Shown: positions 2,990-57,680 of the stretch, piece after piece
Layout of the letters: each line of letters begins with the position of its first letter
How positions within the stretch are numbered: position 1 is the first letter of the stretch
Source: the human T2T-CHM13v2.0 reference genome, Homo sapiens
DNA length: 64,000 nucleotides
NCBI GenBank assembly: GCA_009914755.4
Contig: CP068257.2
Coordinates: 12,192,001-12,256,000, forward strand
Reading direction: 5' to 3'
Made by a program: the position numbers and the translations under genes
The notes under the pieces: model-generated
Told to the model about the DNA's origin: nothing
What the model saw: only the letters and a program-made list of their open reading frames with translations
Databases searched by the model: none

Positions 2990-3872
2990 TCTCCCTGCAG
3001 TGCTCAGCAGCCCCCACTGACCAGGTCCCTGCTGACCAGATCCAGCATATCAGATCCTCCCTGACCACACCCTCACTGACTAGACCCCCATCACCAGGCC
3101 TCACTAACTAGATTCCCGCTGACAGGCCCACAATGACCAGGACTCCACTGATGAGGACCTTACTGATAAGTCCTCACTTGTAAGGCCTCACTGACCAGGT
3201 CCTTACTGACAAGGCCTCGCTGATCAGGTTCCACCGATAATGACCCCATTGCCTGGTCCCACAGATGAAGCCCCACTGAGCAGGCCTCCAGGGAATAGGC
3301 TGCCAGTGACCAGGCTCCTACTAACCACGCCTGAGGTGACCAGATGCCCCTGACTGGGACTCTAATGAGTATGCCCCACTGAACAGGCATGCACTGCTCA
3401 GATCCCCGCTGACCTGGTCACCCCGTAGACCAGTGCTACAAAAGCCACCACTGATCAAGTCCTCTCTGACCAGGCCCCCACTGATTAGGTTCCACTGAGC
3501 AGCCTGCCCTGACCAGGGCCCCACTGACAAGCGCCTCTGCTGACTAGGTCCCATGTGGCCAGGCCTCCACTGAATAACACCCCTTGACCTGGTCACCAGT
3601 AACCCAGCCCAATCAGACAAGGCCACAACTAAGCCCCAGCTGACAAGGTCTCCACTGACCAAGTCCCACAGCCCAGGTTGGCATTGACCAGACACCAAAC
3701 ATTTGTCTGCCACTAGGAACCCACTCACCAAGAGCTGCACTACTAGATCCCTCTAATGAGACCCTCTCTAGGCAGACACCTGCTGACCACCCCCCACTAA
3801 ATAGGCCTCACTGACAAAGTCCCAACTGACTAGGTCCCCTGAGCAGGCCTACACTGATCAGGCCCCTCCTAA
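2990..3872. repeat. Degenerate minisatellite A, ~15-17 bp units with consensus about CCACTGACCAGGYCC, directly abutting the macrosatellite
   Basis: Visible reiteration of 'cactgaccaggtcc', 'cactgatcaggcccc', 'ctgaccaggccccca' and similar units through 3000-3870. It ends at 'taaccatatcagaaggccaag', where the LTR-like array sequence begins. Confidence 0.8.
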
Positions 3873-6800
3873 CCATATCAGAAGGCCAAGCGGCAATGAG
3901 ATGTTTCATATGGCAGGAGTAGGAGCAAGACAGAGAGAGGAAAGAGGTGTGACATCCTGTTAGACAACCAGATCACATAAGAACTCACCATCAGGACATC
4001 GGCATCAAGAAAACTAACCAATGGTGAAGGATCCTCCACCCACACCACCGCCCACTGTTTCCAGGCAGAAGCCTCCTGCAGAAGCAGAACCTCTTAGGAA
4101 ACATCCACTATGGCAGTGCAGAAGGAAAATATAGGCTTTGAGCCCCCACACAGGAGGCCACCTTCCTCCAGACTCCAGGTTCATAAGCCCACCAACAGCT
4201 CACACCCTCAGTATGGAAAAGCTACAGGCACTCGACACCAACCCAGCCCATGAGAGCAGCCATGGGGGCAACACCCTGCAAAGCCAGAGATGCACTGTCC
4301 TAGTAGAGGTTTCCCATGAGCCTCTGCCTCTGCAGCAAGTTACTCCCACCCTCCCACCACCCTACTGACGACCTACTCCTCCCCACACTACTCCTCCTTT
4401 TCCTTCCACCCCAACCCCCTCCCATCCAAGATTAAATCACCTCCCACCTGGCACACCTCCGACATTAAGGATGACACGTGAGTTTTACAGGGACACACAG
4501 CCAACCCATATTATTCTGACCCTGATACCCCAGAACCTCATGTCCTTCTCACAGAGCAAAACACAATCATGCCTTTTCAAAAGTTTCCAAAAGTCTTAAC
4601 TCATTCCAAATGTAAAAATTTCAAAGTCTCATCTGAGACAAGGTTACAATCCCTTCTGCCAATGAGTCCCTGAATTTAAAAGGGATTTCTTTTCCTTCAA
4701 GGTACAATAGGCATTGGGTAAGTTTTCTCAATCCAAAGGGAAGAAATTCCCCAGAAAAATAACACAAATGCAAGTCCAAACCCCAGCAGGACAGTATTCA
4801 TTCAATACAGTATCTCACAGCTCTGTAATCATCAAGAGAACTCACTATCATGCAGACAGCATTAAGGAGACAGTGTTAAACAATTTATGAAGAATCCAAT
4901 CCCCACCCTCATCTTTCACACCCATCCACAAAATAATCTCCACCATTCTCCCCACACCCCTACCTCCAACACCCACTCTTCGCCATGATTAAATCACCTC
5001 CCACCAGGCCCCACCTTTAACTTTCACCATCACAATTCCATGAGAGTATTGGTAGGGACAAAAAGTCAAATCATATTATTCTGACATGGGTCCCCCCCAA
5101 TCTCATATCCTTGTCACACTACAAAATACAATGATGCCTTCTGTACAGTCCCCCAAATTCTTAACTCATTCCAGCATTTACTGAAATGCCCAAAGCCCAG
5201 AGTCTCATCTGAGGCAAGTCTACAGTCCCTTCTGCTCATGAGCCACTGAATTACATATAAAGCAAGTTTACTACTTCCAAGGTGCAATGATTGTACAGGC
5301 GTTGGGTAAGCATTCCCAGCCAAAAGGAAAAAAATTGCCAGAAAGAAGCACAAAAAACAGATGGGGCTTACAGACCCCATGCAAGTCAAAAACCCAGCAG
5401 GCCAGTCATTGAATCCTACAGCTCCCAAATCATATTTTCTGAATCTGTATCCCACATCTGGAGCACAGGGGTGGATAGCTGGGCTCCCAAGGCCTTGGGC
5501 AGCTCAGCATCTGTGACTGTGCAGGGTCTATCCCCCACAGGTGACCTCATGGGCTGGGCTGGTGTTGAGTGCCTGTGGCTTTTCCACACTGAGGGTGCCA
5601 GCAGTTGGCGGGTCTATGAATCTGGGGTCTGGAAAATGGTGCATTCCTGTGTGGGCGCTACAACCCTATATGTTCCTTCTGTACTGCCCTAGTAAATGTT
5701 TCCCATGAGGCTCTGCCTCTTGGAAAAGCTGCTGTCTCAACACCCAGGTTTTCCCATACATACTCTGGAGTCTAGACAAAGGCTCCCAAGCCTCTAGTTT
5801 TGTGCTCTGTGCACCTGCTGGCTTAGTACTATGTGGAAGCCACCAAGGTTTGAAGCTTGCACCCCTGAAGCAGTGATGCAAGCTGTACCTGTGCATCTTT
5901 CAGCCGTGACTGGAGCTGGAGCTGGAGCTGGAGCTGCAGGGATGCAGGCAGCAGTGTCCTGAGGATGAACACAGCAACGCGACCATGGGACTCACCCAGG
6001 AAAGCATTCTTGGGTCCTAGAACTCGGGGCCTGTGACAGCAAGCTCTGCTGCAAAGGTCTCTGAAATGGCTTCAAGACCTTTTAACCTTGTCTTAGCTAT
6101 TAGCACTGGGCTCCATTTTATGCAAATTTCTGAAGCCTTCTTGAATTTTCCCACTGAAAATCAGCTTTGCTTTTTGACCACTTGGCCAGGCTGCAAATTT
6201 TCCAAACTTTTAAGTCCTGCTTCTCATTTAAATATAACTTTCAACTTGAGGTCATTTATTCAGTCACAGAGAAGACCACAGGCTGTTCAAAACAGACAAG
6301 ACACCTCTTGCGCTTTGCTGCCTACTTCATTTCACCAGATATACCCTAAATTATCACTCTCAAGTTCAAAGTTTCAGAGGTCTCCAGGGCAGGAACACCA
6401 TCCAGCCAAGTTCTTTGCTAAGGCAAAACAAAAGTAACCTTAACTCCTGTTCCCAGTAAGTTGCTCATTTTCATCTGAGACCTTCTAAGTCTGGCCTTCA
6501 CTGTCCATCCTTCAGTCACTCTTTTAATTATAGCTATGTAACAAGTCTCTATGGTCACCGTTTTAATTTAACACATCTCTACAATAGTCCAAATTTTCCC
6601 TCATCTTTCTGTCTTCTTCCAAGCCCCCCAAACTGTGCAGCATCTGGTCGTTACCCACGTCTGAACCTGCTTCTACATTTTCAGCTACCGTTGTGGCAGC
6701 CTGGCAATGTGGTAAAAGAAGAAAAGTCCATTTTCAGGGGGAAAATTCAAGAAGCCTTCAGATATTTGCATATAGAAGAAGCCAAATGCTAATAGTAAAA

Positions 6801-6882
6801 AAAAAAAAGATGAAGAAACCTTGAGGGCATTTCATAGCTCCACTTTACAGTACAAATTTTCTGTAGTATTATTTTTAAAAGA
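3872..6882. repeat. Monomer m0 (F-type, 5'-truncated at the array edge)
   Basis: It is homologous to 23053-26235. ORF 5114-5455(-) matches 24493-24804(-). It starts mid-LTR at 'ccatatcagaaggccaagcggcaatgagatgtttcatatggcagg'. Confidence 0.85.
5912..5935. repeat. (GGAGCT)4 microsatellite in the F-type monomer
   Basis: 'ggagctggagctggagctggagctgcaggg'. The equivalent sites are 25261-25290 ('ggagctgtagctgtagctgtagctgcaggg') and 44817-44840 ('ggagctggagctggggctgcaggg'). Confidence 0.9.
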
Positions 6883-7640
6883 GGTTTAACTGGCTCATGT
6901 TTCTGCAGGCTGTAAAGGCAGCAAGTGGCTTCTGCTTCTGGGAGGACTCAGGAAGCCTCCCAATCATACCAAAAGGCCAAGTGACAATGAGATGTTCCAT
7001 ATGGCAGGAGTAAGAAGAAGATACAGAGAAGAAAGAGGTGCCACACCCGGTTATACAACCAGATCTCATGAGAACTCACTATCAGAAGATCAGCCTCAGG
7101 AAGATTAACCAATGGTGAAGGATCCGCCCGCACCACCCCTCGCTGTTTCCAGGCGGAAGCCTCCTGCAGAGGCAGAACCTCTTGGAGAACCTCTACCAGC
7201 GCAGTGCAGAAGGAAAATATGAGCTTGTAGCCCCCACACAGGAGGCCACCATCCTCCAGACAGGAGATTGATAAACCCACCAACAGCTTGCACTCTCTGC
7301 GTGGAAAAGCTACAGGCACTCAACACCAGCCCAGCCCATGAGAGCAGCCATGGGGGCTACACCCTGCAAAGCCACAGGTGCACTGCCCTAGTAGAGACTT
7401 TCCATGAGCCTCTGCCTCTGCAGCAGGCTACTTCCCCCTCCTACTACCCACCACCCTATCACCACCCTACTAACAACGTACTCCTCACCCTACCAACCCC
7501 TTTTCCTTCCACCCCCGGCCCCCGAACATCCATGATTAAATCACCTCCAGCCAGGCCCCACCTCCAATATTAAGGATTACAATTCACATGAGTTTTGGTA
7601 AAGAAACACAGCCAAATCATATTATTCTGACCCTGATCCC
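6840..7640 (-). mobile_element. Representative LTR-like portion of a monomer: MaLR-type LTR (reverse complement) interrupted by a ~400 bp insertion; an equivalent segment starts each monomer
   Basis: 'gaggtttaactggctcatgtttctgcaggctgtaaaggcagcaagtggcttctgcttctgggaggactcaggaagcctcccaatcataccaaaaggccaag...cagatctcatgagaactcactatcag...ggtgaaggatccgcccg' runs to the insertion at 7125-7520, then 'catgattaaatcacctccagccaggccccacctccaatattaaggattacaattcacatgagttttggtaaagaaacacagccaaatcatattattctgaccctg'. Confidence 0.7.
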
Positions 7641-9994
7641 CACAGTCTCATGTCCTTCTCACAGAGAAAAATATATTCATGCCTTTTCAAAAGTTTCCAG
7701 AAGTCTTAACTCATTCCAACATTAACTCAAATGTAAAAAAATCAACATCTCATCTGAGACAAGTCTACAGTACCTTTTGCCTATGAGTCCCTGAATTTAA
7801 AAGGATGTTCTTTTCTTTCAAGGTACAATAATGGTACAGGCTTTGGGTAAGATTTTTCAATCCAAAGGGAAGAAATTTCCCAGGAAGAAAACACAAATGG
7901 GACCACAGGCCCAATACAAGTCCAAAACCCAGAAGGCCAGTATCCATTCAATCTTACAGCTCCAAAATCATGAAGAGAACTCACTATCACAAGGACAGCA
8001 ATAAGGAGAGTGTTTAATCATTTGTGAAGCATCCGTCCCCCACCCCCAATTTTCACTGCTCACCCGCACCATAAATCCCCCAGTCTCCCTAAGCCCCATC
8101 TTCCAACCCCCACCCTCCACCGTGATTAAATCACCTTCCTCCAGGCCCCACCTTTAACATTCCGATGACAATTCCACATGAGTTTTGGTAGAGACACAGA
8201 GCTGAATTTTATTATTCTGTCCCTGGCTCCCCAAATCTCATGTCCTTCTCACATTGCAAAATACAATGATGCCTTCCCTACAGTCCCCCAAAATCTTATA
8301 TCATTACAGTATTTATACAAATGTTGAAAGCTTAAAGTCTCATCTGACACAAGGCTACAGTTTCTTAGGCCCATGAGCCTCTGAAATATAACGCAAGTTA
8401 ACTACTTCCAAGGTACAATGCTTGTACAGGCATTGGGTAAGCATTCCCAGCCAAAAGGAAGAACGTTGCCGGAAAAAAACAAAACACAGATAGGACTTAC
8501 CGGCCCCATGAAACTACAAACCCAGAAGGCCAGTCATTCCATCCTACAGTTCCAAAATCACCCTTTTTGAAACCTTGTCCCACATCCAGGGCACAGGGGT
8601 GTGAGGGCTGGGCTTCCAAGGCCTTGGGCAGCTTGGCACCTGTGGCTTTGCAGGGTTTATGCCCCACAGCTGGCCTCATGGGCTCGGCTGGTGTTGAGTG
8701 CCTGTGACTTTTCCTCACTGAGAATACAAGTTGTTGGGGGGTCTATGAATCTGGGGTCTGCATGATGGTGGCCTCCAGTGTGGGGGCTCCAACCCCATGT
8801 TTTCCTTCTGCACTGCCCTAGTAGAAGTTTCATATAAGGCTCTGCCTTTTTGGGGTGCTTTTGCCTGGACACCCAGGCATTTCCATACATCTTCCAAAAT
8901 CTATAGAGAGGTTCCGAAGCCTCTAGTCTCATGCTCCGTCCGCCAGTGGCTTAACACTATGAGGAATTTACCAAGGCTTCTAGCCAGCACCCTCTGTAGC
9001 AGTGACCCAAGCTGTAGCTGTGCATCTTTCAATCATGGCTGGAGCTGGAGCTGGAGCTGGAGATGGAGCTGGAGATGGAGCTGCAGGGATGCAGGCAGCA
9101 GTGTCCTGAGGCTCCACACAGAGGGGGTCATGGAACTGGCCCAGGAAACTGTTCTTCTCTCCTAGGCCCCAGGGCCTGTAACAACAAGGGCTGCTGCAAA
9201 GGTCTCTGAAATGCCTTCAAGGCCTTTTCCCTATTGTCTTGTCTATTAGCACTGGGCTCCTTTTCATGCAAGTTTCCGAAGCCTTCCTCAATTTTCCCCC
9301 TGAAAATCAGCTTTTCTTTTGGACCACATGGCCAGGCCGCAAATTTTCCAAACTTTTGAGTTCTGTTTCTCATGTAATGTAAGAGTTGGGACTCATTTAA
9401 TGTAAGTCTCATCCAGAGGTCATTTCCTCCATCCCACATAAGAGCACAGGCTGTTCAATGGAAACAGGACAACTCTTGAGCTTTGCTGCTCAGTTCATTC
9501 CACCAGATACTCAGTAAATCATCACCCTCAAGTTCAAAGTTTCACAGATCTCCAGGGCGAGGTCACCGTGCAGCCACGTTCTTTGCTAAGGAAACAAAAG
9601 TAACTTTGACTTCTGTTCCCAGTAAGTGCTTCATTTTCATCTGAGACCTTCTAAGTCGGGCTTTCACTGACCATTTTCCTGTGAGCCTTCTGATCACAAA
9701 TGTTTAACAATTCTTTACAAAGATCCAAACTTTCATTCATCTTCTTGTCTTCGAAGCCCTCCAAACTCTTCCGACCTCTGTATGCTACTCCCTTCTGAAC
9801 CTGCTTCTACATTATCACTATCTTTGCCACAGCCTGGCAATGTGGTAAAGGAAAACAAGTCCATTTTCAGGGGGAAAATTCATGAAGCCTTCACATACTT
9901 GAATGAAAAGAAGCTGAGTGCTGATTGCCACGACAATGACATTTAATAGTTCCACTTTGCACTACTAATTTTCTCTATGATCATAAAGAAAAGA
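6883..9994. repeat. Monomer m1 (A-type), first monomer of HOR copy 1
   Basis: It is bounded by 'ggtttaactggctcatg' at 6883 and 'ggtttaattggctcatg' at 9995. Its ORFs recur at 27115-28811 and 46671-48355. Confidence 0.9.
9041..9082. repeat. (GGAGCT/GGAGAT)7 microsatellite in the A-type monomer of copy 1
   Basis: 'ggagctggagctggagctggagatggagctggagatggagct'. Confidence 0.9.
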
Positions 9995-12900
9995 GGTTTA
10001 ATTGGCTCATGATTCTGCAGGCTGTAAGGAAACACAGTGGCTTCTGAATCTGGGAGGACTCAGGATGCCTCCCAATCATACCAGAATGTCCAGGGGCAAT
10101 GAGATGATTCATGTGGCAGGAGTAGGCACAAGACAGAGAGGAAAGAGGGCCACACCCTATTATACAACCAAATCTTATGTGAACTCACTATTACAAGGTC
10201 AGCATCATGAAGATGGTGCTTAAACATTGATGAAGGAACAACCACCCACACCCAACTCCCACTGTTTCCAAACAGAAGCCTGCTGCACAGGCAGAGCCTC
10301 TTGGAAAACCTGTACTAGGGCAGTGTGGAAGGAAAATATGAGCTTGGAGCCCCCACAGAGATGGCCACCACCCTCCAGACCCCAGATTCACAGACCCATC
10401 AGCAGCTCACACCCTCTGTGGAAAAGCTACAGGTTTTTCCAAACCTCAACACCAACCCAGCCCATGAAAGCATCTGCAGGGGCTCAACCCTGCAAAGCCA
10501 CAGGTGGATTGCCCTAGTAGAGGTTTTCCATGAGGCTTTGCCTCAGCAGCAGGCTACTCCCCCTTCCTACTACCCCCAACCCTCCCACCATTCTACTGCC
10601 AGCCTACTCCTCCCCACCCCAACCAACCATTTTGTGATACCCTACCTTGTTTTAACCTGATCGACTCTCCCTTAGCTGAGGGAGCCAGGCAGACTCCATC
10701 TTGGCTGTTTCACTTGCAGCCCCTTACACACATCCCTTCCTCAAGGACATAACTTGTGCAAGCTGACTCCCAGCACATCAACGAATGCAATTACTGACAA
10801 GATACTGTGGCAAGCTATATCCACAGTTCCCAGGAATTCACCCCGTTGATGGTACCTAAAACCCCCGCATTTCTGTCCAGTTGATAGCACCCAAAGCCCC
10901 CACCTCTATCACCTTTTGATGGATTTAAAGTCCCTGCACCTGGAACTGTTTGTTTTCCTGTAGCCATTTACCTTTTTAACTTTTTTGCCTGTTTTGCTTC
11001 TGTAAGATTGCTTCAACGAGGCCTCCCCTCCCCTTTCTAAACCAAAGTATAAAAGAAAATCTAGCCCCTTCTTCCGGGCCGAGAGAATTTTGAGCACTAG
11101 CGCTCTCTCAGTCGCTGGCAATAAAGGTCTCCTGAAGTCGTCTCATAGTGTGGCGTTTCTCTACCACTCGCTTGGTTACAACCCTTTTCCTTCCACCCCC
11201 CAACCCACCTCCAATCCATGATTAAATCATCGCCCCCAGGCCCCACTTTCAACATTTGGAATTACAATTCCACCTGAATTTTTTTAGGGACTCACAGCCA
11301 AACCATATTATTCTTACCCTGATATCCCAGAATCTCATGTCCTTATCACAGAGCAAAATACAATCATGCCTTTTCAAAAGTTCCAATAGCCTTAACTAAT
11401 TCCAAGTGTAAAAAGTTCAAAGTCTCATCTGAGACAAGGCTACTGCCCCTTCTGCCTATGAGTCCCTGAATTTAAAAGAGATTTCTTTTCTTTCAAGGTA
11501 CAATGATGGTAGAGGTATTGTGTAAGCTTTCTCAATCCAAAGGGAAGAAATTTCCCAGAAAAATAACACAAATGGGCCCACAGGCCCAGTGCAAGTCCAA
11601 AACCCAGCAGGACAGTATTCACTCAATCTCACAGCTCAAAAATCATTAAGAGAACTCATCGTCATGCGGAAAGCATTAAGGAGACAGTGTTTACCCATTT
11701 GTGAAGAATCTGTTCCCCCGCCCTCATCTTTCACTCCCATCCACAAAATAATCTCTCCCGTTCTCCCCACACCCCTACCTCCAACACCCACTCTTCTCCA
11801 TGATTAAATCACCTCCCACCAGTTCCCACCTTTAACATTCCCCCCTAAAATTCCACATGAATATTGGTAGAGACACAAATTCAAATCATATCATTCTGGC
11901 TCTTGCTCCCCAAATCTTGTATCCTTGTCACACTGCAAAATACATTGATGACTTCTTTACTGTCCCCCAAAGACTTAACTCATTCCAGCATTTACTAAAA
12001 TGTACAAGGACTTACAGACCCCATGCAAGTCAAAAACCCAGCAGGCCAGTCATTGAATCCTACAGCTCCAAATCATCTTTTCTGAATGGACATCTCTCAT
12101 CCGATCACAGGAGTGTCATGGCTGGGCTCCCAAGGCCTTGGGCAGCTCTGCACCTGTGGCTGTGCACGGTCTATCCCCCACAGCTGCCCTCATGGGCTGG
12201 GCTGGTGTTGAGTGCCTGTAGCTTTTCCAAACTAAGGTTGGAAAAGCCAGCTGTTGGTGGGTCTATGAATCTGGGGTCTGGAGAATGGTGCCTCCATATT
12301 TAGGGACCCCAGCCCTATATTATCCTTCTGTACTGCCCTAGTAAAGGTTTCCCATGAGGCTCTGCCTCTTGGAAAAGCTTCTACCTGAAAACCCAGGTTT
12401 TTCCGTAGATACTCTGGAGTCTAGACAAAGGCTCCCAAGCCTCTAGTTTTGTTCTCTGTGCACCTGCTGGCTTAACACTATGTGGAAGCCACCAAGGCTT
12501 GAAGCTTACACCCCTGAAGCGTGATGCAAGCTGTACCTGTGCATCTTTCAGCCATGGCTGGAACTAGAGCTGCAGGGATGCAGGCAGCAGTGTCTTGAGA
12601 CTGCACATAGAGGGGGGTCATGGAACTGGCCTAGGAAACCATTCTTCTCTCCGAGGCCCCAGGGCCTATGATAGCAAGGGCTGCTGCAAAGGTTTCTGAA
12701 ATGGCTTCAAGGCCTTTTCCCTATTGTCTTGGCTATTAGCACTGGGCTCCTTTTCATGCAAATTTCTAAAGCCTTCCTCAGTTTTCCCCTGAAAATCAGC
12801 TTTTCTTTTTGACCATTTGGCCAGGCTGCAAATTTTTGAGTTCTGTTTCTCATTTAATATAAGAGTTGGGACTCATTTAATGTAAGATCCATCCAGATGT

Positions 12901-13496
12901 CATTTTCTCGGTCACACATAAGGGCACAGGCTGTTTGATACAGACAGGACACCCCTTGAGCTTTGCTGTCCAGAAGTTCATTCCAACAGATACGCAGTAA
13001 GTCATCACCCACAAGTTCAAAGTTTCACAGATCTCCAGGGCAGTGTCACTGTGCATCCACGTTCTTTGCTACAGCAAAACAAAAGGCACCTTGGCTCCTG
13101 TTTGCAGTAAGTTCCTCATTTTCATCTGAGAGCTTCTCAATCTGATCCTTACCGTCTATTTTCCTATGAGTCTTCTGATCACAAGTATTTAACAACTTTT
13201 TACAAAGATCCAAACTTTCCCTCATCTCCCTGTCTTTGAAGTCCTCCAAACTCTCCAGAACTCCATCTGCTACCCCCTTCTGAACCTGCTTCTACATTTT
13301 CAGCTATCTTTGTCACAGTCTGGCAGTGTGGTAAAGGAAGACAAGCCCATTTTCTTGGGAAAAATTCAAGGGGCTTCAGATACTTGAATGAAAAGAAGCT
13401 GAGTGCTGATTGCCAAGACATTAGGGAGAAGGCCTTGAAGACATTTAATAGATCCACTTTGCAGTAATAATTTTCTCCATAATCATAAAGAAAAGA
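9995..13496. repeat. Monomer m2 (B-type)
   Basis: ORFs 10191-10391(-) and 10909-11121(-) recur at 29530-29730, 30239-30451, 49075-49275 and 49782-49994. Confidence 0.9.
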
Positions 13497-35800: not shown

Positions 35801-35870
35801 AAAAGGTCTTGAAGGCATTTCATAGCTCCACTTCACAGCACTAATTTTCTGTATAATCAGAAAGAAAAGA
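32822..35870. repeat. Monomer m9 (C-type, full length)
   Basis: It is homologous to 13497-16361 and retains the ~190 bp segment 35291-35485 that copy 1 lacks. Confidence 0.9.
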
Positions 35871-42300: not shown

Positions 42301-42611
42301 TTTAACAAGTGCCTACAATGGTCCAAACTTTCCTTCATCTCTCTGTCTTCTTTCAAGATCTCCAAACTCTCCAACCTCTGGCTGTTACCCACTTCCGAAC
42401 CTGCTTTACATTTTCAGCTATCTTTGTTGCAGCCTGGCAATGCAGAAGAAAAAGAAGTCCATTTTCAGGGGGAAACTTCAAGAAGCCTTCAGATATTTGC
42501 ATTAAAAAGAAGTCCAGTGCTAATAGCCAAGACGATGGGGAAATGTCATTGAAGATATTTCATAGCTCCACTTCGCAGTACTTTATTTTCTGTATGATCA
42601 TAATGAAAAGG
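39346..42611. repeat. Monomer m11 (E-type)
   Basis: It is homologous to 19781-23052. Confidence 0.9.
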
Positions 42612-45600: not shown

Positions 45601-45788
45601 GCCTGGCAATGTGGTGAAAGGAGAAAAGTCCATTTTCAGGGGGAAAATTCAAGAAGGCTTCATATATTTCCATATAAAAGAAGCCAAATGCTAATGGTAA
45701 AAAAAAAAAGGGGGGGGGGGGAAACCTTGAGGGCATTTCATAGCTCCAGTCTACAGTACAAATTTTCTGTAATATTATTTTTTAAAGA
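42612..45788. repeat. Monomer m12 (F-type), last monomer of HOR copy 2
   Basis: It is homologous to 23053-26235 and 52372-55497. Confidence 0.9.
45699..45721. repeat. A11 followed directly by G12 at the position of the poly(A) tract in the other HOR copies
   Basis: 'ggtaaaaaaaaaaagggggggggggggaaacc' where the other copies have a pure A-run. Confidence 0.9.
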
Positions 45789-48700: not shown

Positions 48701-48876
48701 TATCTTTGCCACAGCCTGGCAATGTGGTAAAGGAAAACAAGTCCATTTTCAGGGGGAAAATTCTTGAAGCCTTCACATACTTGAAAGAAAAGAAGCTGAG
48801 TGCTGATTGCCAAGACAATGACATTTAATAGTTCCACTTTGCACTACTAATTTTCTCTATGATCATAAAGAAAAGA
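45789..48876. repeat. Monomer m13 (A-type), first monomer of HOR copy 3
   Basis: ORFs 46671-46853(-) and 47404-47838(-) match 27115-27297 and 27896-28282 at a +19.55 kb offset. Confidence 0.9.
47947..47964. repeat. (GGAGCT)3 microsatellite in the A-type monomer of copy 3
   Basis: 'ggagctggagctggagctgcaggg' sits at the position equivalent to 9041-9082 and 28391-28420. Confidence 0.9.
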
Positions 48877-51800
48877 GGTTTAATTGGCTCATGATTCTGC
48901 AGACCATAAGGAAACATAATGGCTTCTGAATCTGGGAGGACTCAGGAAGCCTCCCAATCATATCAGAATGTCCAGGGGCAATGACATGATTCATGTGGCA
49001 GGAGTAGGCACAAGACACACACAGGAGAGAGGACCACACCCTATTATACAAACAGATCTCATGAGAACTCACTATCACAAGGTCAGCATCATGAAGATAG
49101 TGCTTAAACACTGATGAAAGAACAACCACCCACCCCCAATTCTTGCTGTTTCCAAACAGAAGCCTGCTGGACAGGCAAAGCCTCCTGGAAAACTTCTACC
49201 AGGGAAGTGTGGAAGGAAAATACGGGCTTGAAGCCCCCATGCAGATGGCCACCAACCTCCAGACCCCAGATTCATAGACCCACCAAGAGCTCACACCCTC
49301 TGTGGAAAAGCTACAGGCACTCAACAACAGCCCAGCCCGTGAGAGCAGCTGCACGGGCTAAACCCTGCATAGCCACAGGTGCTCTGTCCTAGTAGAACTT
49401 TTCCATGAGTTTTGCCTCTCCAGCAGACTACTCCCCCTTCCTGCTACCCCCACCCTCCCACCACTCTACTGCCAGCCTACTCCTCCCCACCCTAACCAAC
49501 CCTTTTGTGATACCCTACCTTGTTTTAACCTGGTCGACTCTCCCTTAGCTGCGAGAGCCAGAAAGACTCCATCTTGGCTCCTTCACTTGCAGCCCCTTAC
49601 CCACCCCCCTTCCTCAAGGACTTAACTTGTGCAAGCTGACTCCCAGCACATCAAAGAATGCAATTACTGATAAGATACTCTGGCAAGCTATATCCATAGT
49701 TCCCAGGAATTCGCCCGGTTGATAGTAACCAAAACCCCCGCATTTGTGTCCAGTTGATAGCACCCAAAGCCCCCACATCTATCACCTTTGGATGGATTTA
49801 AAGCCCCTGCACATGGAAATGTTTGTTTTCCTGTAGCCATTTATCTTTTTAACTTTTTTGCCTGTTTTGCTGCTGTGAGAGTCCTTCAGCGAGGCTCCCC
49901 CTCCCCTTTCTAAACAAAAGTATAAAAGAAAATCTAGCCCCTGCTTCCAGGCCAAGAGAATTTTGAGCACTAGCGGGCTCTCAGTTGCCGGCAATAAAGG
50001 TCTCCTGAAGTCGTCTCATAGTGTGGCGTTTCTCTACAACTCACTCGGTTACAACCCTTTTCCTTGCACCCTCGACGACCTCCAATCCATGATTAAATCA
50101 TCTCCCCCAGGCCCCACTTTCAACATTTGGAATTACAATTGCACCTGAATTTTTATAGGGACACACAGCCAAACCGTATTATTCTGACCCTGATATTCCA
50201 GAATCTCATGTCCTTAACACAGAGCAAAATACAATCATGCCTTTTCAAAACTTCCAACAGCCTTAACTCATTCCTGTGTAAAAAGTTCAAAGTCTCATCT
50301 GAGACAAGGGTACTGTCCCTTCTGCCTATGGGTTCCTGAATTTAAAAGAGATTTCTTTTCTTTCAAGGTACAATGATGGTACAGGTGTTGTGTAAGCTTT
50401 ATCAATCCAAAGGGAAGTAATTTCCCAGAATACACAAACGGGACCGCAGGGCAAATGCAAGTCCAACACCCAGCAGGACACTATTCACTCAATCTCACAG
50501 CTCAAAAATCATCAAGAGAACTCACTATCATGCGGACAGCATTAAGGAGATAGCGTTTACCCATTTGTGAAGAATCTGCCCTCCCACCCTCATCTTTCAC
50601 TCCCACCCATAAAATAATCTCTCCCATTCTCCCCACACCCCTACCTCCAACACCCACTCTTCTCCATGATTAAATCACCTCCCACCAGGTCCCACCTTTA
50701 ACATTCCCCACGACAATTCCACATGAATATTGGTAGAGACACAGAATCAAATCATATTATTCTGGCTCTTGCTCCCCAAATCTTGTATCCTTGTCACGCT
50801 GCAAAATACAATGATGACTTCTCTACTGTCCCCCAATGACTTAACTCATTCCAGCATTTACTGAAATGTCCAAGGACTTACAGACCCCATACAAGTCAAA
50901 AACCCAGCAGGCCAGTCATTGAATCCTACAGCTCCAAATCATCTTTTCTGAATGGACATGTCCCATCCAGATCACAGGTGTGTCAAGGCTGGGCTCCCAA
51001 GGCCTTGGGCAGCTCTGCACCTGTGGCTGTGCATGGTCTATCCCCCACAGCTGCCCTCATGGGCTGGGCTGGTGTTGAGTGCCTGTAGCTTTTCCAAACT
51101 AAGGTTGGAAAAGCCAGCTGTTGGTGGGTCTATGAATCTGGGGTCTGGAGAATGGTGCCTCCATGTTTAGGGACTCCAGTCTTATATTCTCCTTCTGTAC
51201 TGCCCTAGTAAAAGTTTCCCATGAGGCTCTGCCTCTTGGAAAAGCTTCTGCCTGAACACCCAGGTTTTTCCATACATACTCTGGAGTCTAGATGCAGGCT
51301 TCCAAGCCTCTAGTTTTGTTCTCTGTGCAGCTGCTGGCTTAACACTATGTGGAAGCCACCAAGGCTTGGAGCTTGCACCCCTGAAGCAGTGATGCAAGCT
51401 GTACCTGTGCATCTTTCAGCCATGGCTGGAGCTGGATCTGCAGGGATGCAGGCAGCAGTCTCCTGAGGCTGCACACAGAGGGGGTCATGGAACTGGACCA
51501 GGAAACCATTCTTCTCTCCTAGGCCCCAGGGCCTGACAGCAAGGGCTGCTGCAAACATCTCTGAAATGCCTCCAAGACGTTTTCCCCCAGTGTCTTGGCT
51601 ATTAGCACTGGCCTCCATTTTATGCAAGTTTCTGGAGCCTTCATGAATTTTCCCCCTGAAAATCAGCTTTCCTTTTTAACCACTTGACCAGGCTGCAGAT
51701 GTTCCAAACTTTTGAGCTCTGCTTGTCATTTAAGTATAAGTTCCAACTTGAGGTCATTTCCTCGGTCACACATAACCTCGGTCACACATGAAAGCACAGG

Positions 51801-52371
51801 CTGTTTGATGCAGACATGCCCCCACCCTTGTGCTATGCTGCCTAGAAGTTCTTTCCACCAGATATGCACTAAATCTTCACCCTAGAGTTCAAAATTTCAC
51901 AGATCTTGAGGGCAAGGTCGCCCTGCAGCCATGTTCTTTGCTACAGCAAAACAAAAGCTAACCTTGGCTCCCGTTCCCAGTAAGATCCTCATTTTCATCT
52001 GAGACCTTGTAAGCCTGGCCTTCACTGTCCATCCTTCTGTCAGCCTTTCAATCACAACTATTTAACAAGTGCCTACAATGGTCTAAACTTTCCTTCATCT
52101 CTCTGTCTTCTTTCAAGATCTCCAAACTCTCCAACCTCTGGCTGTTACCCACTTCCGAACCTGCTTTACATTTTCAGCTATCTTTGTTGCAGCCTGGCAA
52201 TGCAGAAGAAAAAGAAGTCCATTTTCAGGGGGAAACTTCAAGAAGCCTTCAGATATTTGCATTAAAAAGAAGTCCAGTGTTAATAGCCAAGACGATGGGG
52301 AAATGTCATTGAAGATATTTCATAGCTCCACTTCGCAGTACTTTATTTTCTGTATGATCATAATGAAAAGG
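48877..52371. repeat. Monomer m14 (hybrid: B-type 5' part fused to E-type 3' part)
   Basis: ORFs 49782-49994(-) and 50952-51170(+) match B-type 30239-30451 and 31409-31627. Downstream, 51310-51627(-) and 51600-52371 match E-type 41757-42611. Confidence 0.85.
51495..51535. other. Recombination or deletion junction between B-type and E-type monomer sequence
   Basis: Upstream, 'ctgcacacagagggggtcatggaactgg' matches B-type 31,900 ('ctgcacatagaggggggtcatggaactgg'), not E-type ('ctgcaaacagcagcagggtcatggggctgg'). From 'ctcctaggccccagggcctgacagcaagggctgctgcaaacatctctgaaatgcctccaagac' onward it matches E-type 41,750-41,820, not B-type ('ctccgaggccccagggcctatgatagcaagggctgctgcaaaggtttctgaaatggcttcaaggcc'). 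Confidence 0.8.
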
Positions 52372-55300
52372 GGTTTAATTGGCTCATGGTTCTGCAGGCT
52401 GTAAAGAAAGCATAGTGGCTTCTGCTTCTGGGAGGACTCAGGAAGCCTCCCAATCACAGCAGTAGGAAAACTGCAATGAAATGTTTCATACAGAAGGAGT
52501 AGGAGCAAGGCTGAGAGAGGAAAGTGGTGCCACACCATCCTGTAACCAGATCTCATGAGAACTCACTATCACTAGGTCAGCATCAAGAAGATGGTGTTTA
52601 ACCATTGGTGAAGGATCCGCCCCCCAACACAGCTCCACCCCCTACCGTTCCAGACAGAAGCCTGCTGCAGAGGCAGAGGCTCTTGGAAATCCTGTACTAT
52701 GGCAGTGCAGAAGGAAAATAAGGGCTTTGAGTGACTATGCAGGAGGCCACCAGCCTCTAGACCCCAGATTCATAGACCTACCAACAGTTCACACCCTCAG
52801 TATGGAAAAGTGATAGGCACTCAACACCAGCCAAGCCCATGAGAGCAGCCATGGGGCCTAAAGCCTCCAAAGCCACAGGCGCACTGCCCTGGTAGAGGTT
52901 TTCCATGAGCCGCTGCCTCTGCAGCAGGCTACACCCCCTTCCTACTACCCACCACCCTCCCACCACCCTACAGCCAGCCTACTCTTCCCCACCCTACCCA
53001 CCCCTTTTTTCTTCCACCCCTACCCCTCCCATTCATGATTAAATAATCTCACACCAGGCCTCACCTCCAACATTTGGGATTACAATTCCACATGAGTTTT
53101 TCCAGGGGCACATAGCCAAATCATATTATGCTGACCTTGACCCCCCCAAATCTCATATCCTTCTCACAGAATAAAATACAATCGTGTCTTTTCAAAGTTT
53201 CCAAAAGCCTTAACTCATTCCCACATTAACTCAAATATAAAAAGTTCAAAGTCTCATCTGAGACAAGGCTACAATCTCTTCTGCATATGAGTCCCTGAAG
53301 TTAAAAGGGTGTTCGTTTCTTTCAAGGTACAATGATGGTACAGGTATTGGGTAAGCTTTCTCAATCCAAAGGGAAGAAATTTCCAAGAAAAATAACACAA
53401 ATGTGACCACAGGCCCAATGGACATCCAAAATCCTGCAGGTCAGTGTTCATTCAATCTCACAGCTCCAAAATCATGAAGAGAACTCACTATCAGAAGGAC
53501 GGCATTAAGGAGATGTTGTTTAACCGTTTGTGAAGGATGCACCCCCACCCCTGCCTTACACCCCCAACCCCACCACAATCCCCTCCAACCCTACCCACCA
53601 CCCAGTCCACCCCAAACCTCCCCACCCCGCCAACCATCCAACCTCCACTCTCCATCATGTTTAAACCACCTTCTACCAGCCCCCACCTTTAACATTTCCC
53701 ATTAACCTTCTGCTTGAACTTTGGTAGAGACAGAGAGCCAAAACATATTATTCTGTCCCTGGTCCCCCAATGCTCATGTCTCTCTCACATTGCAAAATGC
53801 AATGATGCCTTCCCTAGAGTCTCTCCAATCTTAACTCATTCCAGCATTTACTCAAATGCCCAAAGCCCAGAGTATTATCTGAGACAAGTCTACACTCCCT
53901 TCTGCCCATGAGCCACTGATTTGTAAAGCAAGTTTATTACTTCCAAGGTAAATGATTGTACAGGCAATGGGTAAGCAGTCCCAGGCAACAGAAAAAAAGA
54001 AAATTGCTAGAAAGAAGCACAAAACACAGATGGGACTCATAGGATACATAAGTGTCCAAAACCCAGCAGGCCAATCACTCAATCCTACAGCTCCAAAATC
54101 ATCGTTTTTGAATCCTTGTCCCACATCCATGGCACAGGGCTGTGAGGGCTGAGCTCCCAAGGCCTTGGGCAGATCTGACCTGTGGCTTGGCAGCGTTCAG
54201 CCTCTGCAGCTGCCTCTCATGGACAGGGCTACTGTTGAGTGCCCATAGATTTTCCACACTGAGGGTGCAAGCTGTTTGTAGGTCTATGAATCTGGGGTTT
54301 GGACATTGATGCCTCCCTCTGTGGGGGCTTCAACCCTATAAGTCTCTTCTTTGCTCCCCTAGTAGAGGTTCCCCATGAGGTTCTGCCTCTTGGAAAAGCT
54401 TCTTCCTGGACATCCAGGATTTTCTGTACATCTTCTGGAGTCTAGACAGGAGCTCCCAAGCCTCTAGTCTCTTTCTCTGTGCACCTACTGTCTTAACACT
54501 ATGTGGAAACCATCAAGGCTTTGAGCCACCTCTGAAGCAGTGACCCAAGCTGTACCTGTGCATCTTTCAGCCATGACTGGTGCTGGAGCTGCAGGGATGC
54601 AGGCAGCAGTGCCCTGTGGTTGAGCACAGCAGCAGAGCCATGGGACTGGCCCAGGAAACCATTCTTCTCTTCTCTCCTAGGCCCCACGGTCTGTGACAGC
54701 AAGGGCTGCTGCAGAGGTCTCTAAAATACCTTCAAGGCCAGTTTCCCACTGTCTTGGCTGTTTGCACTGGGTTCCTTTTTATGCAAATAACCTAAGCCTT
54801 CTTGAATTTTCCCCCTTAAAATCGGCTTTTCTTTTTGACCACTTGGCCAGGCTCCAAATTTTCCAAATTTTAGATCTCCACTTGAAGTTCCAACTTGAAG
54901 TTATTTCTTAGGTCACACATAAGAACACAGGCTGTTCAATGCAGACAGGACACCTCTTGTGCTATGCTGCCTAGATGTTCATTTCACCAGATACATCCTA
55001 AATCATCACCCCCAAGTTCATAGTTTCACAGATCTCCAGGGCAGGGTCCCTGTGCTGCCACGTCCTTTGCTAAGGCCAATCAAATGTAATATTGGCCCCT
55101 GTTCGTAGGAAATTCCTCATTTTCATCTGAGAACTTTTAAGTCTGGACGTCAGTGTTTACCCTTTTCTCAGCCTTCTGATCACAAGTATTTAACAAGTCT
55201 CTATAGTGGTCCAATATTTTCCTCATCTTGTTGTCTTCTAAGCTTTCCCAACTCTTCCTACCTCTGTCTTTTACCGACTTCTGAACCCGGTTCTACATTG

Positions 55301-55497
55301 TCAGCTATCTTTATCAGAGCCTGGCAATGTGATAAAAGAGAAAAGTCCATTTTCAGGGGGAAAATTCACAAAGGCTTCAGATATTTCCATGAAAATAAGC
55401 TGAGTGCTGGTTGCCAAGACAAAGGGGAAAGGGCCTTGAAGGCATTTCATGGCTCCACTTCACAGCACTAATTTTCTGTATGATCATAAAGAAAAGA
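52372..55497. repeat. Monomer m15 (F-type)
   Basis: ORFs 52320-52556(-), 52778-52966(-) and 53269-53451(-) match 42560-42796, 42997-43206 and 43508-43690 at a +9.76 kb offset. Confidence 0.9.
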
Positions 55498-56452
55498 GGT
55501 TTAATTGGCTCATGGTTCTGCAGGCTGTAAAGGAAGCATAGTGGCTTCTGCTTCTGGGAGGATCAGGAAGCCTCCCAGTCATACCAGAAGGCCAAGGGGC
55601 AAGGAGATGTTTCATATGGCAGGAGTAGAAGCAAGACTGAGAGAGGAAAGAGGTGCCACACCCTGTTATATAACCAGACCTCATGAGAACACACTATCAT
55701 GAGGACAGCGTCAAGAAGATGCTGCCTAACCATTGGTGAAGGATCTGCCTCCCACCCCCACCTCCCAATGTTTCCAGGGAGAAGCCTGCTGCAGACGCAG
55801 AGTTCTTGGGAAACCTCTACTAGGGCAGTGCATTAGGAAAATATGGACTTGGAGCCCCCACACAGGGGACTACCACCCTCCAGACCCCAGATTCATAGAC
55901 CCACCAACAGCTTGCACCCTCCGTGTGGAAAATCTACAGGCACTCAACACTAGTCCAGTCCATGAGAGCAGCCATGTTTCTCAAACCTGCAAAGCCACAG
56001 GTGCACTGCCCTAGTAGGGGTTTTCCATGAGGCTCTGCCTCTGCAGCAGGCTACTCCCCCTTCCTCTACCCACCACCCTCCCACCACCCTACAGCCAGTC
56101 TACTCCCTCCCACCGTACCCACCCCTTTTTCCCTTCCACATCCACCCCCACCCATCCATGATTAAATCAGTCCCTCCCACTCCCTCTCATACTCTTATCC
56201 CTCCAAACCCTTCCAATCTTTGTTTGCTACCCACTACTGAGCCTGCTTCTACTTTTTCAGGTATCTATATAGCAGGTTGGCTATGTAGCAATAACAAAAA
56301 TCCCATTTAAGGGGAAAAATTCAAGAAGATTTCAGAAATTTGCATATAAAGAAGCCCTGTGCTAATAGCCAAGACAAAGGAAAAAAGGCCTTGAAGACAT
56401 TTCACAGCTCCTCTCTGCAGTTCTAATTATCTGTATTATTGTAAATAAAAGA
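55498..56452. repeat. Monomer m16 (truncated and diverged; internal deletion after the LTR-like part)
   Basis: The LTR-like 5' part runs through 'catgattaaatcag' at about 56160. It then jumps to monomer-tail sequence ('...cttccaatctttgtttgctacccactactgagcctgcttctactttttcagg'). Confidence 0.75.
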
Positions 56453-57343
56453 GGTGTAATTTACTCATGGTTCTGCAAGCTGTGAAGGAAGCATAGTGTC
56501 TTCTGTTTCTGGGAGGAATCAGGAAGCCTCCTCATTATATCAGAAAGCCAAGGGAAAATGAGATGCCTCCTAAAGCAGGAGCAGGAGGAAGACAGAGTGA
56601 GGAAAGAGGTTCCACAGCCTGTTAAGGAATCAGATCTCATGAGAACTCACTCACTATCAGGAGGTGATGGTCCTTTATCAAGGTGATGGTCCTTTATCAT
56701 TCGTGAAGGATCTACCTGCACCATTTTATGACTAAATCTTTTTCCACCTAGGCCCCGCCTCTGACATCACAGAATATAATTCCACATGAGTTTTGGTAGG
56801 GACATAGAGAAAAACCATATTATTCTGTCCCTGACCCCACGAATCTCATATCCTTCTCACATTGCAAAATACAATCATGCCTTGCCAGCAGTCTCCCAAA
56901 GTCTTAACTCACTTCAGCATTAACTCAAAGTTACAAGGTCCAAAGTGTCATCTGGGTCAAGGCTACAGTCTCTTTGCCTATGAGTCTCTGAAATAAAAAG
57001 CAAGTTCACTGCTTCTAAGGTACAATGATGGTACAGGCATTGTGTAAGCTTTCCATATCCAAAAGGAAGACATTTTCCAGAAAGCTTCTTATTTCTCTCT
57101 GAGACCTCTTCAGCCTGGCCTTCACTGTCCATGTTTCTGTCAGGATTTTTGTCACAACCATTGAACCAGTCTCTAGGATGGTCCAAAAGTTTTCTCATCT
57201 ATCTGTCTTCTTTTGAGCCCTCCAAATTCTTCCAACCTCCATCCATTACCTGGTTCCAAAGCTGCTTCCACATTTCCAGGTATCTTTATAGCAATGCTCC
57301 AGTCTTCATTTGCCATTTTCTGTATGATTTATTTTGAAAAAGA
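56453..57343. repeat. Monomer m17 (truncated, strongly diverged)
   Basis: 'gaggtgtaatttactcatggttctgcaagctgtgaaggaagcatagtg...ccacatgagttttggtagggacatagagaaaaaccatattattctg' is recognisable but much more diverged than the internal monomers. Confidence 0.7.
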
Positions 57344-57680
57344 GGTTTAATTGTCTCATGGTTCTAAGCACAGTGCTTCTGCTTCTAGGAGGCCTCAGAA
57401 ATCTTTCAATAATCATGGAAGGCAAAGAAAGAATCAGTTCTCTCACATGGCAAGAGGAAAACACAGAGAGTAGGGATGTGACATAGAGTTTTCAGTGACC
57501 AGATCTCATGAGAAGTCACTCATTATTGTGAGCATGGTACAAGGGGATGGTGCTGAACCATTCATGAGAAATTTGCCTTCATAATTCAATCACCTTATAG
57601 CAGGATCCACCTTCCACATTAGGAAATATAACTCAACATGAGATTCGGTGTGGACACATATTCGAATTGCATCATCGATC
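57344..57680 (-). mobile_element. Terminal ERVL-MaLR LTR fragment in reverse-complement orientation; the least derived copy and the right edge of the array
   Basis: 'ggtttaattgtctcatggttct...ggtgctgaaccattcatgagaaatttgcc...aattcaatcacc...cacattaggaaatataactcaacatgagattcggtgtggacacatattcgaattgcatcatcg' parallels the reverse complement of the MaLR LTR consensus 5' end (TGATATGGTTTGGCTGTGTCCCCACCCAAATCTCATCTTGAATTGTAGCTCCCA...). The match is from memory, not a database search. Confidence 0.7.

What the first reader, a model, noticed from the sequence alone, without database searches (positions are those of the whole stretch)
3872..57680. A ~54 kb macrosatellite built from MaLR-LTR-derived monomers
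Directly visible: 19 head-to-tail units of ~3.1-3.5 kb. Each opens with a segment that reads as the reverse complement of an ERVL-MaLR LTR (the THE1/MST/MLT1 type). Unique sequence and a different minisatellite flank the array on both sides. Satellites that descend from retrotransposon LTRs and reach macrosatellite scale are uncommon and often poorly represented in assemblies. I cannot say from sequence alone whether this array is already catalogued. The lack of any conserved ORF sets it apart from protein-bearing macrosatellites such as the D4Z4 type.
Basis: partly seen in the sequence, partly recalled or inferred. Interest (0 to 1): 0.7.

Follow-up and report, generated by a model that had tools for sequence, protein, structure and literature searches.

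The report
Known human MaLR "LTR array" megasatellite
The window holds a real ~54 kb tandem array of ~3 kb units made of old retrotransposon (MaLR) fragments, but this repeat family was already described in 2008, and the array's layout fits the copy reported near the centromere of human chromosome 21.

Summary
From about 3858 to 57520 the window is a head-to-tail array. It has 16 full units of 2.9-3.5 kb and three truncated terminal units. Each unit opens with a MaLR-LTR-like segment on the minus strand.

A 19.4 kb block of six diverged unit types (about 81-84% identical to each other) is present 2.5 times, at 94-98% identity between copies. Every C-type unit carries a 548 bp solo LTR. In the third block, one C/F hybrid unit marks a three-unit deletion.

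This is the "LTR array" megasatellite family of Warburton et al. 2008 (BMC Genomics 9:533). Their two FISH-probe primers match once per unit. [quoted passage not shown]

The array shows no sign of function. CpG is depleted (observed/expected 0.13). There is no conserved ORF, no Pfam or Rfam hit, and no excess of CTCF or DUX4 motifs. Conservation along the unit is flat.

I read it as neutrally decaying retrotransposon debris, amplified by unequal exchange and carried by pericentromeric duplication. It is already known, and interest is low.

The parts
3858..57520 (+). Whole LTR array: 16 full units and 3 truncated terminal units. The MaLR LTR pieces at unit starts lie on the minus strand.
   Evidence: Serial end-to-end alignment of the monomer. 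16-mer periodicity. 19 minus-strand LTR-like hits that mark unit starts. Published primers match once per unit.
3858..5290 (+). 5' part of unit 1. This is old 'X' sequence outside the higher-order block, only about 66-78% identical to A-type units.
   Evidence: Windowed identity of m13 against m1 jumps from 66-78% to 92-96% at about 1500 bp into the unit. The boundary is approximate.
5290..24500 (+). Higher-order block, copy 1 (about 19.3 kb): 3' part of unit 1, then B, C, D, E, F, then the 5' part of A-type unit m7.
   Evidence: Long self-alignments at offsets 19262-19574, 92-93% identity. Unit pairs six apart have K2P 0.046-0.066. Boundaries are approximate, about +/-150 bp.
24500..44060 (+). 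Higher-order block, copy 2 (about 19.5 kb): 3' part of m7, then m8-m12 (B C D E F), then the 5' part of m13.
   Evidence: Boundaries are approximate.
44060..53700 (+). Higher-order block, copy 3, shortened to about 9.7 kb: 3' part of m13, B (m14), a C/F hybrid (m15), and the 5' part of m16.
   Evidence: m14 is 95-96% identical to m8 and m2. m15 is C-type and then F-type. The first ~1250 bp of m16 are 96.3% identical to m7 and m13; identity then falls to about 80%.
51492..51499 (+). Unequal-crossover junction inside unit m15, where C-type sequence switches to F-type. It removes three units' worth of sequence from the third block.
   Evidence: 581 diagnostic sites: C-type on the left, F-type on the right, best switch between 51492 and 51499 (550 of 581 sites consistent). 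Windowed identities.
10633..11180 (+). 548 bp solo LTR inserted in the C-type unit of block 1 (called LTR6A in the 2008 paper).
   Evidence: The segment is absent from the other unit types. It has TGTG...TACA ends, a TATA-like GTATAAAAG and an AATAAA signal. It is flanked by ACC(A/C)TTT on the left and ACCCTTT on the right. The family name comes from PMC2588610 and was not tested here.
29963..30510 (+). The same solo LTR in the C-type unit of block 2.
   Evidence: It is 92.0% identical to copy 1 and 97.6% to copy 3.
49506..50053 (+). The same solo LTR in the C/F hybrid unit of block 3.
53700..55485 (+). 3' part of unit 16. This is old 'Y' sequence outside the higher-order block.
   Evidence: Identity to A-type units falls to 73-83% after about 1350 bp. 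The diagnostic-site pattern becomes mixed.
55486..57520 (+). Three truncated or rearranged terminal units, starting at 55486, 56439 and 57320.
   Evidence: Fragmentary alignments to the monomer. LTR-like openers at 55486-55699, 56439-56651 and 57320-57520.
29320..29533 (-). Example of the MaLR LTR fragment that opens each unit. It is the 3' portion of the LTR, cut off about 50 bp before the LTR end.
   Evidence: Read directly: GTGATAGTGAGTTCTCATGAGATCTG ... GAATCATGAGCCAATTAAACTTCTTTTCTTTAT.

Best explanation
This is a copy of the human 'LTR array' megasatellite, most likely the 21q11.2 array. It is a non-coding array of ~3.2 kb composite units assembled from fragments of MaLR retrotransposons (MST/THE1 LTRs and internal sequence, in both orientations).

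Inferred history:
1. A patch of nested or rearranged MaLR fragments was duplicated in tandem by unequal exchange or replication slippage. This gave an array of about seven full units plus truncated ones. Those units then diverged to about 81-84% identity.
2. A solo LTR (LTR6A) inserted into one unit.
3. A 19.4 kb segment running from the middle of unit X to the middle of unit Y was duplicated in tandem twice. This produced the six-unit higher-order repeat. It also produced the chimeric 'A' units, which are the duplication junctions (5' part like m16, 3' part like m1).
4. An unequal crossover between a C and an F unit removed three units from the third block.
5. According to the 2008 paper, the block was spread among chromosomes 13, 18 and 21 by pericentromeric segmental duplication.

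Shown here: the array structure, the breakpoints, the divergence levels, and the lack of coding or regulatory hallmarks. Inferred: the order of events, the mechanism (unequal crossing-over), and neutrality. I think the array has no sequence-specific function. Its practical effect is as a substrate for misaligned recombination and copy-number change.
For: Tandem structure and unit typing.

Family identity: Warburton et al. [quoted passage not shown] The window has 16 full units, about 53.7 kb, a solo LTR in each C unit and a C/F hybrid in the third block.

Primers: 1A gives 16 plus-strand hits with 0-1 mismatch. 2B gives 17 minus-strand hits, one per unit. Zero hits are expected by chance. Predicted products are 1553 bp and 1616 bp, against the '~1.7 kb' stated in the paper.

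Chimeric A units: the 5' 1250 bp of m7 and m13 are 96.3% identical to m16, and their 3' 1500 bp are 94-95% identical to m1. m1 and m16 are only 66-82% identical to each other.

Divergence: K2P is about 0.21 between unit types and 0.02-0.066 between block copies. The solo LTR copies differ by 0.024-0.087.

Neutrality: CpG observed/expected is 0.126 and there is no CpG island. Conservation along the unit is flat at about 0.7-0.83 in 100-bp windows outside the indel-affected ones. There is no conserved ORF, no Pfam hit, no Rfam hit, and no excess of CTCF or DUX4 motifs.
Against: No human genome or RepeatMasker/Dfam library was available. The chromosomal assignment therefore rests on matching a published verbal description, not on alignment to a reference.

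A THE1B version gave only weak hits (62-69% identity).

The ~110 bp around the C/F junction are closest to B-type units (94.7%), so the deletion event may be more complex than a single crossover.

The absence of sequence hallmarks does not rule out transcription or a chromatin role. The strong strand asymmetry and the excess of G-quadruplex-type motifs on the minus strand (19 against about 2 in shuffles) are unexplained.
Confidence: 0.9

Rival explanations
1. A functional chromatin macrosatellite of the D4Z4/DXZ4 kind. Each unit would carry a CpG-rich promoter or an insulator (CTCF) site, or encode a protein, so that copy number would matter for regulation.
For: Unit size (~3 kb) and array size (~54 kb) are in the D4Z4/DXZ4 range. 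There is strong strand asymmetry (GC skew about -0.2 throughout). G-quadruplex-type motifs are in excess on the minus strand.
Against: CpG observed/expected is 0.126, GC is 46.5%, and no CpG island was found. CTCF-like motifs: 2 hits in the whole window, one of them in the array, against 1.5 expected. DUX4 motif: 1 hit against 0.5 expected, and it lies outside the units. There is no conserved ORF and no Pfam hit. Units differ by about 20% with no conserved island, unlike the near-identical units of D4Z4 and DXZ4.
Confidence: 0.04
2. An intragenic exon-bearing repeat, like the LPA kringle units or the DMBT1 SRCR units, in which each unit would contribute one or more exons to a large protein.
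For: Kb-scale units with a higher-order periodicity also occur in such genes. Many stop-free stretches of 90-235 aa exist on both strands.
Against: The open stretches lie on both strands and overlap one another. They are not kept between block copies that are 94-96% identical, and they switch frame between unit types. None hits Pfam. No short island is better conserved than its surroundings, as an exon would be.
Confidence: 0.01
3. The same LTR-array family, but not the 21q11.2 copy. The window could be a paralogue on an acrocentric short arm or another pericentromere, or the orthologous array of a non-human ape.
For: The 2008 paper reports FISH signals on chromosomes 14, 15, 20 and 22 and on acrocentric short arms that were not in the assembly of the time. 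No reference genome could be searched here. An independent metagenome contig matching the flank differs at 2 of 561 bases.
Against: Unit number (16), array length (about 53.7 kb against 53.8 kb) and the specific three-unit deletion in the third block all match the 21q11.2 description. They do not match the 13q11 or 18p11.21 descriptions, where one monomer is lost from the third or the second HOR.
Confidence: 0.15

Closest known systems
LTR arrays of Warburton et al. 2008 (BMC Genomics 9:533), in particular the 21q11.2 array (hg18 chr21:14,145,756-14,199,554)
   Same: ~3-3.5 kb MaLR-derived units. Published probe primers match once per unit. Six-unit higher-order repeat. Solo LTR in monomer C. 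16 units in about 53.8 kb. Three-unit deletion in the third higher-order copy.
   Different: Nothing found that conflicts. Three details come from this analysis and are not in the parts of the paper I read: the exact crossover junction (51492-51499), the chimeric nature of the A units, and the inferred older array of about seven units.
LTR arrays on 13q11 (60.4 kb, 18 units) and 18p11.21 (79.5 kb, 25 units)
   Same: Same family and the same six-unit higher-order repeat with LTR6A, according to the paper.
   Different: Those arrays lack one monomer, in the third and the second higher-order copy respectively, and they are longer. The window lacks three units in the third copy.
D4Z4 (3.3 kb) and DXZ4 (3 kb) macrosatellites
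   Same: Unit size of about 3 kb, array size of tens of kb, and location in repeat-rich chromosome regions.
   Different: By established knowledge, D4Z4 and DXZ4 units are GC- and CpG-rich and nearly identical to each other. They carry the DUX4 ORF or CTCF sites. Here the units are CpG-poor, about 20% diverged, non-coding and without such motifs.
Alpha-satellite higher-order repeats
   Same: The same two-level pattern: old diverged monomers (about 81-84% identical here) inside a much more homogeneous multi-monomer block, reshaped by unequal crossing-over.
   Different: The monomer is about 3.2 kb of retrotransposon debris rather than 171 bp. There are only 2.5 block copies. Block copies differ by 2-7%, so homogenisation is weak or has stopped. 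Nothing here links the array to centromere function.
Other transposon-derived tandem arrays in the same 2008 survey (the LTR12B-like 125 bp array at Yq11.222, the MER20-derived 89 bp array at 2q37)
   Same: Tandem arrays whose unit descends from part of a transposable element.
   Different: In those arrays a short piece of a single element is amplified. Here a multi-fragment composite of ~3 kb is the unit.

Membership tests
LTR array megasatellite (Warburton et al. 2008) | Tandem units of about 3-3.5 kb | tested here: met
   16 full units of 2865-3502 bp, head to tail on one strand.
LTR array megasatellite (Warburton et al. 2008) | The published conserved-region primers (1A CTGTACCTGTGCATCTTTC; 2B GGGAGTAGCCTGCTGCAGAGG) are present in each unit, in convergent orientation, and split the unit into two ~1.7 kb products | tested here: met
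   1A gives 16 plus-strand hits (0-1 mismatch). 2B gives 17 minus-strand hits (0-2 mismatches). Chance expectation is 0.02 or less. Predicted products are 1553 bp (5883-7435) and 1616 bp (7415-9030).
LTR array megasatellite (Warburton et al. 2008) | Units contain MSTA/THE1 LTR fragments | tested here: met
   An MST-type LTR 3' portion aligns at every unit start on the minus strand (67-77% identity, E down to 5e-39, 0 hits with 20 shuffled queries). THE1B 5' end-like pieces lie at unit positions ~650-750 and ~1220-1320.
LTR array megasatellite (Warburton et al. 2008) | Units consist entirely of MaLR sequence, including MSTA-int, in both orientations | not testable with these tools
   No RepeatMasker/Dfam was available. 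Indirect support: each unit contains a ~450 bp direct repeat (645-1086 and 1219-1677) and a ~235 bp inverted repeat (264-496 and 1753-1987). Two plus-strand LTR-like hits were also found.
LTR array megasatellite, chr13/18/21 subgroup | Higher-order repeat of six units, with a full-length LTR6A in monomer C | tested here: met
   Units six apart are 94-96% identical, against 81-84% for neighbouring types. A 548 bp solo LTR with TG...CA ends sits in each C unit. The name LTR6A is taken from the paper and was not tested.
21q11.2 array specifically | 53.8 kb, 16 units, three-monomer deletion in the third higher-order copy | tested here: met
   About 53.7 kb (3858-57520). 16 full units. m15 is a C/F hybrid with its junction at 51492-51499.
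21q11.2 array specifically | Near-identity to the reference sequence at that locus, flanks included | not testable with these tools
   No human reference genome is among the searchable collections.
D4Z4/DXZ4-type macrosatellite | CpG/GC-rich, nearly identical units that carry a conserved ORF or CTCF sites | tested here: not met
   CpG observed/expected 0.126 and GC 46.5%. Units are about 20% diverged. No conserved ORF. No excess of CTCF motifs.

The most novel reading that the evidence does not exclude
The family could have a structural or epigenetic role that nobody has looked for. The units are strongly strand-asymmetric: the plus strand is C-rich, and the minus strand carries 19 G-quadruplex-type motifs against about 2 expected. 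They contain many LTR promoter remnants. By FISH they sit at pericentromeres and on acrocentric short arms. They could act as replication-fork or recombination hotspots that drive exchange between chromosomes 13, 18 and 21 and the other acrocentrics, or as a source of germline small RNAs or lncRNAs. Nothing in the sequence requires this, and my tests only exclude coding, CpG-island, CTCF-motif and DUX4-motif functions.
Probability: 0.05. Interest if true: 0.5.

Novelty: already known. Interest (0 to 1): 0.15.

Why it matters
It matters little as a discovery. The family, its higher-order structure and even this copy's diagnostic deletion were published in 2008.

The finding still has some use. 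It is a clean worked example of how a retrotransposon-derived megasatellite grows: an old unit array, then a solo LTR insertion, then tandem duplication of a 19.4 kb block with identifiable chimeric junction units, then deletion by unequal crossover.

The array also marks a duplication-rich pericentromeric region where mis-assembly and copy-number variation are likely. The family appears to have been little studied since 2008. I found no later description of it in the searchable literature, and a term search of the T2T repeat paper found no mention. A population survey with long-read assemblies would therefore be new but incremental.

Tried and rejected
- TRF finds only short internal repeats, because its maximum period is 500 bp. 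I used k-mer distances and BLAST instead.
- Alu 5' end search: 0 hits. It gave no help in placing the species.
- Rfam: 0 hits.
The first 'MSTA' version was probably misremembered. A second MST-type 3' portion worked.
- I considered DMBT1, LPA and CR1-type exon-bearing repeats. I rejected them because there is no domain hit, no conserved frame and no conserved island.
- DUX4 and CTCF motif scans showed no enrichment.
- Literature leads that went nowhere: the 16q24.1 minisatellite flanked by MLT1D has a 33 bp unit and is unrelated. The ZATELLITE preprint matched 'msta' only through the word 'mStayGold'. The pericentromeric 'GPS genes' preprint mentions no LTR, MSTA or SNX18. A term search of the T2T repeat-annotation preprint found no mention of MSTA, THE1, MaLR or these arrays.
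- A metagenome scan for a 36-mer across the C/F junction gave 0 hits, which is uninformative.
- A comparison of the left and right flanks found only the shared minisatellite and no larger duplication.


Full report
**Observation**

The window contains a genuine kb-scale tandem array. Distances between identical 16-mers peak at about 3.05-3.45 kb, 6.4-6.6 kb and 9.75 kb, and most strongly at 19.3-19.55 kb. TRF reports only short internal repeats because its period limit is 500 bp.

An LTR-like segment marks every unit start. In that register there are 16 full units of 2.87-3.50 kb (starts 3858 to 52360). Three truncated terminal units start at 55486, 56439 and 57320. The last three are not 3 kb units.

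The array limits are about 3858 to 57520. The flanks are non-repeated. Both carry the same 15-bp-period minisatellite (core CTGACCAGG), in the same orientation, found only at 3017-3862 and 60830-61408.

**Anatomy**

Neighbouring units are only 81-84% identical at aligned positions (K2P about 0.21). Units six apart are 94-96% identical (K2P 0.042-0.066). In the register used for these comparisons the units are:
- m1 (3790-6881)
- m2-m7, of types B, C, D, E, F, A
- m8-m13, of types B, C, D, E, F, A
- m14, type B
- m15, a hybrid
- m16
- a degenerate tail

Windowed identities and 581 diagnostic sites show what m15 is. It is C-type for its first ~2600 bp (95-98% to m9). It is F-type for its last ~800 bp (96-99% to m12 and m6). 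The switch lies between 51492 and 51499. An unequal C/F exchange therefore removed three units' worth of sequence from the third block.

The high-identity block starts in the middle of m1, at about 5290, and ends in the middle of m16, at about 53700. The A-type units m7 and m13 are chimeras. Their 5' 1250 bp match m16 (96.3%) and their 3' 1500 bp match m1 (94-95%). m1 and m16 themselves are only 66-82% identical.

That is the signature of tandem duplication of a 19.4 kb segment. The ancestral array would have read X-B-C-D-E-F-Y plus truncated units, with A as the duplication junction. This is my inference. It fits the 7-9-unit, 20-27 kb arrays that the 2008 paper lists on chromosome 9.

Each C unit carries a 548 bp insertion (10633-11180, 29963-30510, 49506-50053). 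It has TGTG...TACA ends, a TATA-like box and an AATAAA signal. A short direct duplication, ACC(A/C)TTT on the left and ACCCTTT on the right, flanks it. It is therefore a solo LTR. Its three copies differ by K2P 0.024-0.087, in step with the blocks. It must have inserted before the block duplications.

E-type units carry an extra ~330 bp internal duplication.

**What the units are made of**

Read on the minus strand, the unit start shows MaLR LTR hallmarks as I remember them: GTGATAGTGAGTTCTCATGAGATCTG ... CCAATTAAACTTCTTTTCTTTAT.

Identity is 67-77% and E-values reach 5e-39. There are 19 minus-strand hits plus two short plus-strand hits, and no hits with 20 shuffled queries.

Each unit also contains a ~450 bp direct repeat and a ~235 bp inverted repeat. 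This fits several related fragments in both orientations.

Because my consensus sequences come from memory, the stronger basis is the published RepeatMasker-based description.

**Identification**

Warburton et al. 2008 (BMC Genomics 9:533, PMC2588610) describe a megasatellite family they call 'LTR arrays':
- The units are ~3.5 kb and consist entirely of MaLR sequence (MSTA and THE1 LTRs and MSTA-int, in both orientations).
- There are 25 arrays on nine chromosomes, embedded in pericentromeric segmental duplications.
- On 13q11, 18p11.21 and 21q11.2 there are higher-order repeats of six units, each with a full-length LTR6A in monomer C.
- The 13q11 and 18p11.21 arrays are longer and each lack one monomer.

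The window matches the 21q11.2 description on every point.

Their FISH-probe primers give an independent test. Primer 1A has 16 plus-strand matches (0-1 mismatch). Primer 2B has 17 minus-strand matches, one per unit. The chance expectation is 0.02 or less. The predicted products of 1553 and 1616 bp agree with the paper's 'two ~1.7 kb fragments'.

An earlier paper mentions a 22 kb chromosome 9 'LTR array cluster' of ~3 kb repeats (PMC1914374). I found no later description of the family.

**Function**

I found nothing pointing to a sequence-specific function.
- The array is strongly CpG-depleted (observed/expected 0.126, GC 46.5%) and has no CpG island. The highest local CpG values lie in the younger solo LTR.
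- Conservation among the six unit types is flat, about 0.7-0.83 in 100-bp windows away from the indels, with no island.
- No ORF of 80 aa or more is shared by all units. The one stretch that is open in 12-14 units is read in different frames in different unit types. Four of the longest ORFs have no Pfam hit.
- Rfam finds nothing.
- CTCF-like and DUX4 motifs are at chance level.

The most likely account is neutral. MaLR debris was amplified by unequal exchange, then re-amplified as a block, then trimmed by a further unequal crossover, and carried between chromosomes by pericentromeric duplication.

With commonly used primate neutral substitution rates (about 1-2.2e-9 per site per year), the divergences put the unit amplification several tens of millions of years back, up to roughly 100. 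They put the block duplications roughly 10-30 million years back. These figures are rough, because CpG decay and gene conversion distort them.

**Limits**

No human reference genome and no Dfam library could be searched. The locus assignment (confidence about 0.8) and the names MSTA, THE1 and LTR6A therefore rest on the paper plus structural agreement.

The ~110 bp around the C/F junction are closest to B-type units. This hints at a conversion patch, or at an event more complex than a single crossover.

The strand asymmetry (GC skew about -0.2) and the excess of G-quadruplex-type motifs on the minus strand (19 against about 2) are unexplained. They may simply reflect the composition of the parent element.

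**Verdict**

The feature is already known, and interest is low.

Noticed in passing
window 57921-58952: A sorting-nexin (SNX9/18/33-type) BAR-domain pseudogene lies on the minus strand about 0.4 kb beyond the array. Three ORFs in different frames are colinear with Pfam PF10456 (profile positions 2-29, 101-175, 185-228; E down to 7e-16). It looks like an SNX18-derived pseudogene with frameshifts. The closest named protein hit is SNX18 of Saguinus oedipus, at 69% identity.
   Followed up: partly
window 58252-58410 and 58809-58967: Part of the SNX-like pseudogene is duplicated in inverted orientation. The arms are 159 nt long and 91% complementary, with 398 nt between them. As single-stranded DNA the region folds far better than shuffles (z = -22).
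   Followed up: partly
window 3017-3862 and 60830-61408: The same 15-bp-period minisatellite (core CTGACCAGG) lies on both sides, in the same orientation, and nowhere else in the window. The left copy abuts the first array unit. The 57 kb block (array plus pseudogene) looks as if it sits inside, or was inserted into, one minisatellite-bearing sequence.
   Followed up: partly
L001 (ENA metagenome contig ERZ926946 k127_58217) against window 58130-58690: A 561 bp contig from a metagenome assembly is 99.6% identical to the flank (2 mismatches) and encodes the identical 92-aa ORF. Dozens of similar short ORFs sit in metagenome assemblies, and some are labelled as Helicobacter pylori hypothetical proteins. 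These are most likely host (human) DNA contamination in microbial data sets.
   Followed up: partly
window 23041-26216 and 42600-45768 (A-type units m7, m13): The A-type units are chimeras: the 5' part is like unit 16 and the 3' part is like unit 1. They are therefore the junctions of a 19.4 kb tandem duplication of an older array of about seven units.
   Followed up: yes
window 51440-51550: The ~110 bp around the C/F crossover junction are closest to B-type units (94.7%), not to either parental type (about 90%). This suggests a short conversion tract or a more complex exchange.
   Followed up: partly
window 14054-14119, 16934-16990, 17531-17592, 33379-33444, 37362-37475, 43816-43870, 53570-53626: C-rich 23-28 bp micro-repeats (CCACC/CCCCA-type) occur inside several unit types. 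The array has 19 G-quadruplex-type motifs on the minus strand against 3 on the plus strand and about 2 in shuffles. GC skew is about -0.2 throughout.
   Followed up: partly
window 5910-5936, 9038-9083, 28388-28421: A GCTGGA/CTGGAG hexamer tract in each unit differs in length between otherwise 95%-identical block copies (7.7 against 5.7 repeats). This is small-scale slippage inside the large repeat.
   Followed up: no
window 59134-59228 and 59383-59477; 62001-64000: A second inverted repeat lies in the right flank, with 95 nt arms that are 93% complementary. The last 2 kb of the window drop to 35.5% GC. Neither was examined further.
   Followed up: no
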